Below are positions 43,543 to 43,935 of a DNA stretch of 64,000 nucleotides, one piece after another. Positions within the stretch are counted from its first letter, which is position 1; every line of letters starts with the position of its first letter. The DNA is taken from assembly GCA_965113315.1 (NCBI GenBank), contig OZ220374.1. One strand, given 5' to 3'. The position numbers are program-made. The stretch is from Podarcis vaucheri (taxonomy: Eukaryota).

Positions 43543-43602
<60 letters not shown>

Positions 43603-43879
43603 GCAGGTTTTGGTGTCTTCGGGTGTCTTCCCGTGTAAGAGTCGGGGTGTCTGGGCGACGTTTCGACGAGGTCTCACTCGTCATCTTCAGGCTGGTGCTT
43701 TCGGCTTCTTGTTACTGGAACAGAGTAACTCTGTTCCAGTAACAAGAAGCCGAAAGCACCAGCCTGAAGATGACGAGTGAGACCTCGTCGAAACGTCGCC
43801 CAGACACCCCGACTCTTACACGGGAAGACACCCGAAGACACCAAAACCTGCATTCCTGTACCCGTGAAAATCTACGAAA

Positions 43880-43935
<56 letters not shown>

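What the first reader, a model, noticed from the sequence alone, without database searches (positions are those of the whole stretch)
43601..43881. Perfect 253-bp palindrome (126-bp arms, 1-nt loop) in GLCCI1 intron 1: a young inverted Penelope-like insertion
Seen: 43601-43726 and 43728-43853 are exact reverse complements around a single A (43727). CpGs are intact, a 28-nt tail extends only the right arm, and the unit sits between TA repeats. Known: Penelope-like elements often leave inverted pseudo-LTRs with a short tail, and some clades target microsatellites; near-spacerless palindromes can form cruciforms and are unstable. Inference: the insertion is very recent and possibly polymorphic. 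The GLCCI1 pre-mRNA would carry a 126-bp perfect dsRNA hairpin about 3 kb downstream of exon 1, a potential ADAR, Dicer/endo-siRNA or dsRNA-sensor substrate and a fragile site.
Basis: partly seen in the sequence, partly recalled or inferred. Interest (0 to 1): 0.72.

Follow-up and report, generated by a model that had tools for sequence, protein, structure and literature searches.

The report
Inverted Penelope-like retrotransposon stub in intron
A perfect 253-bp palindrome in the first intron of a reptile-like GLCCI1 gene is a young, dead-on-arrival double fragment of a Penelope-like retrotransposon, an ordinary by-product of how these elements insert.

Summary
Arms 43601-43726 and 43728-43853 are 126/126 complementary around A43727. 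A 28-nt tail (43854-43881) sits on the right only, and (TA)n lies on both sides.

- Each arm carries a hammerhead "min-HHR" motif with the hallmarks published for metazoan PLEs.
- An ATG sits at the start of hammerhead stem II, as in the Anolis element PAc. The frame is open for 37 codons to the tail end.
- That peptide matches the N-termini of two proteins. These link to a rattlesnake protein and then to hundreds of RT plus GIY-YIG proteins.
- The outer ends lie at ORF +84 and +112. PAc starts reverse transcription internally at 111-118, and the "tail" lies between two start sites.

Insert CpG o/e is 1.01 against 0.15 in the flanks, so it is young. It lies in intron 1, 2,970 nt from the exon 1 donor.

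This is a known kind of structure. Copy number, polymorphism, assembly correctness and RNA effects were not testable here.

The parts
43546..43602 (.). Left flank of the target: compound microsatellite (TG)19.5 then 19 nt of (TA)n.
   Evidence: TRF row 43546-43584. TA run 43584-43602 seen.
43601..43726 (-). Left arm: an inverted, 5'-truncated PLE copy. Its sense strand is the window's minus strand. It covers element positions -42 to +84 relative to the PLE start codon. The outermost 2 nt are ambiguous with (TA)n.
   Evidence: 100% complementary to the right arm. Mirror-image hammerhead motif at 43690-43657.
43727..43727 (.). Single central A between the two 5'-truncated ends (head-to-head junction). 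Inferred to be one untemplated nucleotide at a template jump.
   Evidence: Sequence. The mechanism is inference.
43728..43853 (+). Right arm: a direct 5'-truncated PLE copy, positions -42 to +84 (pLTR end plus the first 28 codons).
43764..43797 (+). Minimal type-I hammerhead motif: CUGAAGA, an extra U, 6-bp helix II (GACGAG/CUCGUC, loop UGAGAC), GAAA, then A15.1-C15.2-G16.2-U16.1-C17. The predicted cleavage site is after 43797.
   Evidence: The descriptor hits only here, once per strand, and in 0 of 300 simulated 64-kb sequences. The features match those listed in PMC4209133. Rfam does not detect it.
43770..43881 (+). Start of the PLE ORF: ATG at the start of stem II, with 37 codons open to the tail end (MTSETSSKRRPDTPTLTREDTRRHQNLHSCTRENLRK) plus 1 nt.
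   Evidence: Matches P0001 (68%) and P0002 (71%) from their first residues. tblastn of P0001 gives E 6.6e-9. Alignment.
43854..43881 (+). 'Tail': a 28-nt extension (ORF +85 to +112) present on the right copy only.
   Evidence: Sequence. PLE tails of 30-40 bp (31 bp in one A. vaga element) at one end only are described. The tail is the stretch between two RT start sites.
43882..43933 (.). Right flank of the target: (TA)26.
   Evidence: TRF.
46852..47392 (-). Coding part of GLCCI1-like exon 1 (host gene context). The donor GT is at 46851-46850, 2,970 nt from the tail end.
   Evidence: ORF translation. Donor read from the sequence. The splice site is inferred from AGAG|GTAAGG.
35404..35604 (-). 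Open frame holding the next GLCCI1-like exon (…[30 protein letters not shown]…). Its exon boundaries were not determined. It places the palindrome in intron 1.

Best explanation
The 281-bp insert (43601-43881) is a dead-on-arrival product of one retrotransposition event by a canonical (C-terminal endonuclease) Penelope-like element of the Penelope/Poseidon type.

It consists of two head-to-head cDNA copies of the same short stretch of element RNA. That stretch is the last 42 nt of the pseudo-LTR, including a minimal hammerhead ribozyme motif, plus the first 84 nt (left copy) or 112 nt (right copy) of the ORF. It was integrated into the (TA)n part of a (TG)n(TA)n microsatellite in intron 1 of a GLCCI1-like gene of a non-mammalian, probably squamate, host.

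Most likely mechanism (inferred, about 0.45 of my belief):
1. The element's GIY-YIG endonuclease cut both strands of the AT-rich target.
2. Reverse transcription was primed on each strand from one of the two adjacent internal start sites that PLEs use. This gives the +84 end on the top strand and the +112 end on the bottom strand, and so the one-sided 28-nt tail.
3. Both cDNAs ran to the same 5' end of the template (-42).
4. One untemplated nucleotide and an end-to-end template jump joined them, giving a perfect palindrome with a 1-nt centre.

The fragment has no RT or EN coding capacity and cannot move. Its hammerhead is locked in a perfect duplex. It is young: CpGs are undecayed and the arms show no difference. 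At this locus it only adds a 126-bp perfect hairpin to the GLCCI1 pre-mRNA and a cruciform-prone palindrome to the DNA. The effects of both are unknown.
For: SHOWN
- Exact palindrome, tail and (TA)n flanks.
- Min-HHR descriptor site unique in the window, once per strand, and found in 0 of 300 simulated 64-kb sequences.
- The site has the four features that PMC4209133 lists as emergent in metazoan PLE hammerheads: an extra nt between positions 9 and 10.1, a G10.1-C11.1 pair, a long helix II, and palindromic 15.2-16.2 with no loop 3.
[quoted passage not shown] - The frame is open for 37 codons to the tail end.
- A full HMMER scan of 1.84 billion representatives returned 2 proteins at E<=1e-3. 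Both align from their own residue 1-2 (P0001 68%, P0002 71%).
- P0001 matches a Crotalus adamanteus protein, P0003, at E 8.5e-64. P0003 matches 457 proteins of 661-2000 aa at E<=1e-5.
- Of the 120 listed, 116 carry PF00078 + PF28514 + PF26215. They include Anolis carolinensis and Podarcis muralis proteins.
- RVT_1 was confirmed locally in 4 of 4 tested.
- A GIY...YIG motif with two internal cysteines is present in 66 of 120.
- The tail ends right after ENLRK, 5 residues before the conserved LYGE.
- This corresponds to about nt 115 in the Anolis protein P0017, inside PAc's 111-118 RT start window.
- P0002 leaves the shared sequence at the same point and runs into a translated CA repeat. This indicates an independent insertion with the same terminus beside a microsatellite.
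- CpG o/e is 1.01 in the insert against 0.15 in the flanks.

FROM THE LITERATURE
- Head-to-head inverted 5'-truncated copies, a tail at one end only, and AT-rich or (TA)n targets are PLE signatures.
- PAc cleaves and extends both strands.
- PAc initiates at two adjacent internal sites that delimit the tail.
Against: - Rfam hammerhead models do not detect the motif: 0 hits at E<=10 on the single arm.
- Helix I has only 2 contiguous base pairs by hand pairing, against the 4-5 bp usual for PLE min-HHRs. A 2-bp helix I is reported for D. virilis.
- The single arm is no more stable than shuffles (z 0.20; 99 of 200 shuffles fold as well).
- The two peptide hits are only just significant library-wide (E 4.8e-4 and 9.9e-4).
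- The word-index search with a 46-aa piece found nothing.
- The link to RT + GIY-YIG proteins is a chain of three steps. The direct score of the peptide against P0003 is 21.8 bits, and the peptide scores at most 7.8 bits against any of the 120 proteins listed.
- No other PLE remnant is in the window: all 4 tblastn HSPs from 123 proteins are at the palindrome.
- No other nucleotide copy of the element could be examined.
- Equating P0017 with PAc is unverified, because the PAc sequence file could not be read.
- The tail is 28 nt, just under the published 30-40.
- The two-strand priming step is inferred. A shared -42 end is also what snap-back synthesis gives automatically.
- The youth estimate from arm identity could be inflated by gene conversion between arms, though the CpG argument is independent of that.
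Confidence: 0.8

Rival explanations
1. Same PLE origin, but made from a single cDNA. Reverse transcription was primed on one strand at +112 and ran to -42. It then turned back and copied the nascent cDNA itself (self-priming or snap-back). The copy-back strand was joined to the left (TA)n by AT microhomology at +84.
For: Snap-back gives exactly symmetric arms without needing two cDNAs to stop at the same nucleotide. PMC3846280 interprets palindromes at inverted PLE junctions as self-priming, and documents microhomology-mediated 5' junctions. The left junction has an ambiguous AT shared with the flank.
Against: The left end would be arbitrary, yet it falls 28 nt inside the right end, close to the published tail length between two RT start sites. 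A 1-nt centre is too small for a priming hairpin loop (inference). PAc extends both strands in vitro.
Confidence: 0.3
2. The template was not an autonomous PLE transcript. It was a short non-autonomous derivative (a retrozyme-like or pLTR-only RNA) mobilised in trans by a PLE protein. The locus is still a PLE-machinery product.
For: Only 154 nt of element sequence are present. PAc needs only the pLTR-ORF junction and the first 172 nt of the ORF as template. A. vaga pLTRs suffice for integration in trans. A 2026 preprint links vertebrate non-LTR retrozymes to pLTRs and reports an average consensus length of 176 bp in reptiles.
Against: Both copies read straight through the predicted hammerhead cleavage site, and neither end is at it. 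The template was therefore not a ribozyme-cut monomer. The coding frame and its homology to PLE N-termini are intact.
Confidence: 0.15
3. Assembly error. The real locus holds a longer PLE (inverted pLTR plus pLTR-ORF-pLTR) whose two direct pLTR copies were collapsed. Alternatively, one arm is a fold-back read artefact.
For: PMC8557442 and PMC3846280 both state that tandem or inverted PLE structures often break or confuse assemblies. The insert sits between microsatellites, which are hard to assemble.
Against: A simple fold-back would mirror the tail and the flanks too. Here the tail is one-sided, and the unique flanks beyond the repeats differ. The window has no N, and it resolves 52-nt and 39-nt dinucleotide runs. 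The outer ends fall at biologically meaningful positions. A collapse of direct pLTRs cannot be excluded with these tools.
Confidence: 0.07
4. A palindromic DNA-transposon MITE (Tc1/mariner-like, with a TA target), or a host hairpin-RNA or miRNA gene, unrelated to PLEs.
For: Insertion at TA and a near-complete hairpin are typical of Stowaway-like MITEs (recalled). Rfam miRNA-precursor models align to the hairpin (31 matches at E<=1).
Against: The insert's two ends, tail included, are not inverted repeats of each other. All Rfam matches are below their gathering scores (for example 81 against 245 bits) and fit any long hairpin. None reaches gathering score in the window. The hammerhead motif, the ORF start and the peptide homology are unexplained by this reading.
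Confidence: 0.02

Closest known systems
PAc, the Poseidon-clade Penelope-like element of Anolis carolinensis (PMC11167929; main text read)
   Same: [quoted passage not shown]
- The insertion ends lie inside the ORF at about +112 (PAc: 111-118), with a tail between two start sites.
- The target is AT-rich.
- Both strands are cleaved and extended in vitro, which fits a head-to-head pair.
   Different: - It is a different family. The window peptide does not match the Anolis protein P0017 directly (no P0017 row among the phmmer matches at E<=10) and is only linked through P0001 and P0003.
- Only 154 nt of the element are present.
- A nucleotide comparison with PAc could not be made (file unreadable).
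- The second start site of PAc is not given as a number in the text I read.
Pen2a_Av and related Penelope copies of Adineta vaga (PMC3846280; passages read)
   Same: An inverted pLTR lies next to a direct pLTR, head to head. [quoted passage not shown] The pLTR includes the first codons of the ORF (12 aa, or 22 with the tail; here 28 and 37). Palindromes occur at the inverted junction.
   Different: The A. vaga copy keeps a full ORF between direct pLTRs and has a 9-bp target duplication. Here there is no internal ORF at all, the two copies meet with a 1-nt centre, and a target duplication cannot be read inside (TA)n.
Metazoan PLE minimal hammerheads (PMC4209133; about half of the text read, parts 1-2 of 4)
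   Same: [quoted passage not shown] The paper reports similar motifs in turtle and snakes and none in mammals.
   Different: Helix I is only 2 contiguous bp by hand pairing. No second sense copy is nearby to form the active dimer. Activity is untested.
L1 'twin priming' inversions (recalled, not from a call)
   Same: Both strands of a staggered target break prime cDNA synthesis, giving an inverted segment within one insertion.
   Different: In L1 the two segments copy different parts of the RNA and do not form a palindrome. Here both copy the same 126 nt from PLE-specific internal start sites.

Membership tests
Penelope-like element (canonical EN+, Penelope/Poseidon type) | Sequence homology to a PLE ORF (telomerase-like RT plus C-terminal GIY-YIG) | tested here: met
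   The 37-aa ORF start matches P0001 and P0002 from residue 1 (E 4.8e-4 and 9.9e-4 in 1.84 billion proteins). P0001 matches P0003 at 8.5e-64. P0003 matches 457 long proteins, and 116 of the 120 listed carry PF00078 + PF28514 + PF26215. RVT_1 was found in 4 of 4 tested and a GIY..YIG motif in 66 of 120. The link is a chain and not a direct match to RT or EN.
Penelope-like element (canonical EN+, Penelope/Poseidon type) | The locus itself encodes RT and GIY-YIG EN | tested here: not met
   Only the first 37 codons are present. tblastn of 123 proteins finds nothing else in the 64 kb, and none of the 41 ORFs of at least 100 aa scanned against Pfam (8 of the 49 listed, all overlapping frames inside the exon 1 CpG island, were not sent) matched an RT or endonuclease family. 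This is expected for a 5'-truncated copy. It is a fragment of a member, not an autonomous member.
Penelope-like element (canonical EN+, Penelope/Poseidon type) | Hammerhead ribozyme motif in the pLTR | tested here: met
   A descriptor match unique in the window and found in 0 of 300 simulations. Its features are as.
Penelope-like element (canonical EN+, Penelope/Poseidon type) | Direct or inverted pLTR arrangement, with an inverted 5'-truncated copy head to head | tested here: met
   Both arms have their ORF-proximal ends pointing outwards and their 5'-truncated ends at the centre. The arrangement is described.
Penelope-like element (canonical EN+, Penelope/Poseidon type) | A 30-40 bp 'tail' at one end only, reflecting internal RT start sites | tested here: met
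   A 28-nt (up to 30-nt) one-sided tail at ORF +85 to +112. Literature.
Penelope-like element (canonical EN+, Penelope/Poseidon type) | AT-rich or microsatellite target, with a short target-site duplication | tested here: inconclusive
   The target is (TA)n, so that part is met. A duplication cannot be recognised inside a dinucleotide repeat.
Penelope-like element (canonical EN+, Penelope/Poseidon type) | Repeated family in the host genome | not testable with these tools
   No eukaryotic genome, Dfam or Repbase is on hand. The bacterial and archaeal genome scan gave 0 hits.
Hammerhead ribozyme (type I, PLE min-HHR) | Conserved core: C3-A9 box, G12-A14, H17 | tested here: met
   CUGAAGA ... GAAA ... 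C17 at 43764-43797.
Hammerhead ribozyme (type I, PLE min-HHR) | Helix I of 4-5 bp flanking the core | tested here: not met
   Only 2 contiguous pairs (C-G, G-C) by hand pairing of the sequence. One search reports a 2-bp helix I in D. virilis PLEs.
Hammerhead ribozyme (type I, PLE min-HHR) | Detected by curated covariance models | tested here: not met
   0 Rfam matches at E<=10 on the single arm and none at gathering score in the window.
Hammerhead ribozyme (type I, PLE min-HHR) | Self-cleavage (as a dimer or with protein assistance) | not testable with these tools
   Needs an in vitro assay.
Tc1/mariner-type MITE | Terminal inverted repeats at both ends of the insert | tested here: not met
   With the tail included, the right end is not the reverse complement of the left end.
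miRNA / hairpin-RNA gene | Match to a curated precursor family at gathering score | tested here: not met
   All 31 matches are below gathering score. There are 0 at gathering score.

The most novel reading that the evidence does not exclude
The locus is a natural, nucleotide-resolved footprint of symmetric two-strand target-primed reverse transcription by a dimeric PLE protein. Each target strand was primed from a different one of the two internal RT start sites (+84 and +112). Both cDNAs ran off the same 5' end of a short template RNA (-42, a candidate pLTR transcription start). The two were fused by a one-nucleotide untemplated template jump.

If so, solo head-to-head pLTR stubs like this one would give in vivo confirmation of the two-strand activity so far seen only in vitro for PAc. 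They would also map the 5' end of the PLE template RNA. In addition, this copy would be a newly born 126-bp perfect intronic dsRNA in a conserved gene, open to ADAR editing or small-RNA production.
Probability: 0.3. Interest if true: 0.45.

Novelty: new member of a known kind. Interest (0 to 1): 0.3.

Why it matters
For the genome itself this is ordinary: a truncated transposon stub in an intron. It has three modest uses.
- It marks recent PLE activity in the host and is a good candidate for a presence/absence polymorphism.
- It is an unusually clean case, with no internal sequence and a 1-nt centre, of the head-to-head plus tail architecture whose origin is still debated. A genome-wide census of such stubs could discriminate two-strand priming from self-priming.
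- It places a perfect 126-bp duplex in the pre-mRNA, and a spacer-less palindrome in the DNA, of a conserved gene. This can be tested for RNA editing, small RNAs and instability.

It also warns annotators that such sites draw generic miRNA-precursor matches.

Tried and rejected
- **Rfam.** There were no matches at gathering score in the window. The 31 sub-threshold matches on the region are generic long-hairpin alignments to miRNA-precursor, SRP and sok models, and I rejected them. The single arm gave 0 matches at E<=10, so Rfam's hammerhead models do not see this minimal variant.
- **Fold of one arm.** It is not more stable than shuffles (z 0.20), so there is no case for a structured RNA beyond helix II.
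- **Word-index protein search** with a 46-aa piece: 6 candidates, none scored.
- **Pfam on P0001-P0003:** nothing significant. The precomputed accessions PF28514 and PF26215 are not in the local Pfam copy, so I did not see their names.
- **Pfam on 41 window ORFs of at least 100 aa:** one family only, FAM117, which is a host exon. No transposon protein was found.
- **tblastn of 123 fetched proteins against the window:** only the palindrome.
- **Exact scan of bacterial and archaeal genome contigs** for the 34-nt motif: 0 hits, as expected.
- **PAc supplement.** Only a list of sequencing runs was readable. The sequence file and PDFs could not be read, so there was no nucleotide comparison with PAc.
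- **Host species** was not identified, because no protein search was left for the GLCCI1 exons.
- **Lünse et al. 2017** on dimeric PLE hammerheads is recalled. It appeared only as a citation in the search listing and I did not read it.
- **MITE and miRNA readings** were considered and rejected (see rival explanations).
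Full report
**1. The observation**

- Arms 43601-43726 and 43728-43853 are 126 nt long and 100% complementary, with one base (A43727) between them.
- The 28 nt at 43854-43881 extend the right arm only.
- On the left lie (TG)19.5 (43546-43584) and 19 nt of (TA)n (43584-43602). On the right lies (TA)26 (43882-43933).
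- The outermost AT of the left arm could equally belong to the TA run.
- A 34-nt core of the arm occurs nowhere else in the 64 kb, even with 3 mismatches allowed, apart from its own mirror copy.
- The window has no N, 40.7% G+C and CpG o/e 0.28.

**2. Host context, and whether the window is human**

A GLCCI1-like exon 1 lies on the minus strand in a 71% G+C island.
- Its ATG is at 47392, and the donor AGAG|GTAAGG puts GT at 46851-46850.
- The next recognisable exon (…[30 protein letters not shown]…) lies within 35404-35604. A further one lies within 24943-25104.
- An exon matching the C-terminal end of Pfam FAM117 lies within 8607-9044 (E 8.8e-15).
- The insert is therefore in intron 1, 2,970 nt from the donor.

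I looked at these exons one at a time only. The exons were not sent to any outside protein collection.

I do not take the window for human, for two reasons.
- The exon 1 peptide differs at many positions from the human protein as I recall it. This is recall, not a tool result.
- Penelope-like elements and their hammerheads are reported absent from mammals (PMC4209133) and from birds and mammals (2026 bioRxiv preprint, Results section read).

The closest named relatives of the element's peptide come from squamates. The host is probably a squamate or another non-avian reptile, but the species was not identified.

**3. What the arm contains**

Read on the plus strand, the right arm plus tail has three parts:
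- 36 nt of upstream sequence;
- a hammerhead-like motif at 43764-43797;
- an open reading frame that starts inside that motif (ATG 43770) and stays open for 37 codons to the last base of the tail.

The motif reads CUGAAGA, an extra U, a 6-bp helix II (GACGAG/CUCGUC), GAAA, then A-C-G-U-C with no loop 3.

A descriptor I wrote for this architecture found one site per strand in the window, both in the palindrome. It found none in 300 simulated 64-kb sequences with the window's dinucleotide transitions.

[quoted passage not shown] All four are present here.

Three results go against a strong ribozyme claim.
- Rfam's hammerhead models do not report the motif, even on the single arm at E<=10.
- Helix I has only two contiguous pairs by hand pairing. 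The paper reports 4-5 bp as usual and 2 bp in D. virilis.
- The arm as a whole is no more stable than shuffles (z 0.20).

I therefore use the motif as a family marker, not as evidence of activity.

**4. Comparison with the one PLE studied biochemically**

PMC11167929 (main text read) reports the following for PAc, a Poseidon-type element of Anolis carolinensis.
[quoted passage not shown] - Reverse transcription starts at two adjacent sites inside the RNA, the commonest being 111-118 nt into the ORF.
- The genomic "tail" is the sequence between the two start sites.
- The protein cleaves and extends both DNA strands.
- AT-rich DNA is preferred.

In the window the landmarks are as follows.
- The ATG is at the start of stem II.
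- C17 is ORF nt 28, which is 25 nt after the start codon.
- The arms end at ORF +84.
- The tail ends at ORF +112.

These correspondences were not built into any search.

**5. Protein homology**

- A word-index search with a 46-aa piece found nothing.
- A full HMMER scan of 1.84 billion representatives with the 37-aa ORF start returned exactly two proteins at E<=1e-3. P0001 is 189 aa (68% identity, residues 1-37 on 1-37, E 4.8e-4). P0002 is 169 aa (71% identity, 3-36 on 2-35, E 9.9e-4).
- These E-values are borderline, but both matches start at the target's own N-terminus.
- P0001 continues into a helical region and matches a Crotalus adamanteus hypothetical protein (P0003, 377 aa) at E 8.5e-64.
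- P0003 contains ILPADKGNATVVM and LYGLPKIHKEGTPLRPIVS. I recognise these from memory as the PLE "DKG" motif and the start of the RT domain.
- P0003 in turn matches 457 proteins of 661-2000 aa at E<=1e-5.
- Of the 120 listed, all carry PF28514 and 116 carry PF00078 + PF28514 + PF26215. They include an Anolis carolinensis protein of 836 aa (P0017) and a Podarcis muralis protein.
- Local Pfam confirmed RVT_1 in 4 of 4 tested. It gave a sub-threshold GIY-YIG hit in 1 of 4.
- A GIY…YIG pattern with two internal cysteines, the PLE hallmark quoted in PMC8557442, is present in 66 of the 120 proteins of at least 660 aa.
- Scored directly, the window peptide gives 21.8 bits with P0003 and nothing meaningful with the long proteins. 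The link to RT and EN is therefore a chain of three steps.
- In an alignment of N-termini, the tail ends immediately after ENLRK, five residues before the conserved LYGE. That point corresponds to about nt 115 of P0017, inside PAc's 111-118 window if P0017 resembles PAc. I could not verify this, because the PAc sequence file is unreadable here.
- P0002 leaves the shared sequence at the same point (…CENLR) and continues as IHTHTHTH, a translated CA repeat. This looks like an independent insertion with the same terminus beside another microsatellite.

**6. Architecture**

In both arms the ORF-proximal (3') end points outwards and the 5'-truncated end lies at the centre. This is a head-to-head pair.
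- PMC8557442 (passages read) describes PLE insertions as highly 5'-truncated. They often have an inverted 5'-truncated copy adjacent and a 30-40-bp tail at one end only. It names (TA)n as a preferred target for the Naiad clade.
[quoted passage not shown] Its pLTRs include the first codons of the ORF. Head-to-head is the most frequent arrangement. Palindromes occur at the inverted junction, and AT-rich targets are favoured.

The insert is thus a minimal version of a known PLE signature. No other PLE coding remnant lies in the window: all 4 tblastn HSPs from 123 proteins are at the palindrome.

**7. Age**

- Insert CpG o/e is 1.01 (20 CpG in 281 nt) against 0.15 in 4,040 nt of flanking intron.
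- This argument does not depend on the arms being identical, so gene conversion between arms does not weaken it.
- The arms show 0 differences in 126 positions.
- With assumed rates of 0.5-2e-9 per site per year and tenfold faster CpG decay, the 95% upper bound on the age is about 10 to 2.6 Myr. The rates are my assumptions.
- From established knowledge (recalled), near-spacerless palindromes of this size tend to suffer central deletions. An intact centre also fits a recent origin.
- Polymorphism was not testable.

**8. Mechanism**

Shown: two copies of the same RNA segment in opposite orientation, different outer ends 28 nt apart, a common inner end at -42, one extra base at the centre, and a (TA)n target.

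My preferred reading is inferred. Both target strands were nicked and each primed cDNA synthesis, one from each of the two internal start sites. Both cDNAs ran to the 5' end of the same template species. One untemplated base and an end-to-end template jump fused them.

The main alternative is a single cDNA that turned back on itself and was joined to the left flank by AT microhomology. This explains the symmetry for free, but makes the 28-nt offset a coincidence.

I put these at roughly 0.45 and 0.3, with the rest on trans-mobilised short derivatives or an assembly problem.

A simple fold-back artefact is unlikely, because the tail and the unique flanks are not mirrored. A collapse of two direct pLTRs that hides a full-length element cannot be excluded without long reads.

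**9. Consequences at the locus**

- On the GLCCI1 sense (minus) strand, a 361-nt stretch folds into an uninterrupted hairpin of about 125 bp at -288.8 kcal/mol. Shuffles give -88.0 +/- 5.9, and 0 of 100 fold as well.
- This hairpin is what draws the sub-threshold miRNA-precursor matches in Rfam.
- The hammerhead motif is buried in that duplex and has no second sense copy with which to dimerise. It should be inert here (inference).
- Editing, small-RNA production, innate sensing and DNA fragility are reasonable possibilities from general knowledge. Nothing here tests them.

**10. Verdict and what stayed unchecked**

It is a new instance of a known kind.

Unchecked:
- other copies in the host genome, Dfam and Repbase (no such collection is on hand);
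- the metagenome and viral contig collections (closed);
- cluster membership of P0001-P0003 (could not be made);
- the PAc sequence and supplementary figures (unreadable);
- supplements of the bioRxiv preprint (closed);
- the host species.

Noticed in passing
window 31827-32525 (+), within GLCCI1-like intron sequence: A purine-rich stretch (about 51% G+C, AT skew 0.29) that still holds many CpGs. It carries a 233-aa open frame on the plus strand, beginning …MSDDNDPRSLSLSSESEDSQKG…, and a 262-aa frame on the minus strand. There is no Pfam match. It may be a young repeat or retrocopy; its nature is unknown.
   Followed up: partly
protein P0002, not in the window: A predicted 169-aa protein starts with the same PLE N-terminal peptide. 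After …CENLR it reads IHTHTHTHIQIHTHTHTH, a translated CA microsatellite. It appears to be a gene-prediction artefact over another tail-ended PLE stub inserted beside a microsatellite.
   Followed up: partly
window 8607-9044, 24943-25104, 35404-35604, 46852-47392 (all minus strand): The GLCCI1-like gene looks compact. Exon 1, two internal exons and the exon with the C-terminal end of the FAM117 domain all fall within about 39 kb of the window.
   Followed up: partly
protein P0031, not in the window: A spider protein named 'latrophilin Cirl-like' (1326 aa) carries the PLE N-terminal domain PF28514 together with GPCR domains. It is probably an annotation chimera of a host gene with a PLE fragment.
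   Followed up: no
window 43400-44100: Rfam's miRNA-precursor models (MIR2646, MIR6288, mir-3914 and others) give E-values down to 1e-17 on this transposon hairpin while staying below their gathering scores. E-value-based annotation would mislabel such sites.
   Followed up: yes
window 7246-7307, 33449-33491, 3871-3905: Other perfect or near-perfect microsatellites are present: (TTCT)15.5, (TGT)14.3 and (AC)17.5. None carries a PLE stub.
   Followed up: no
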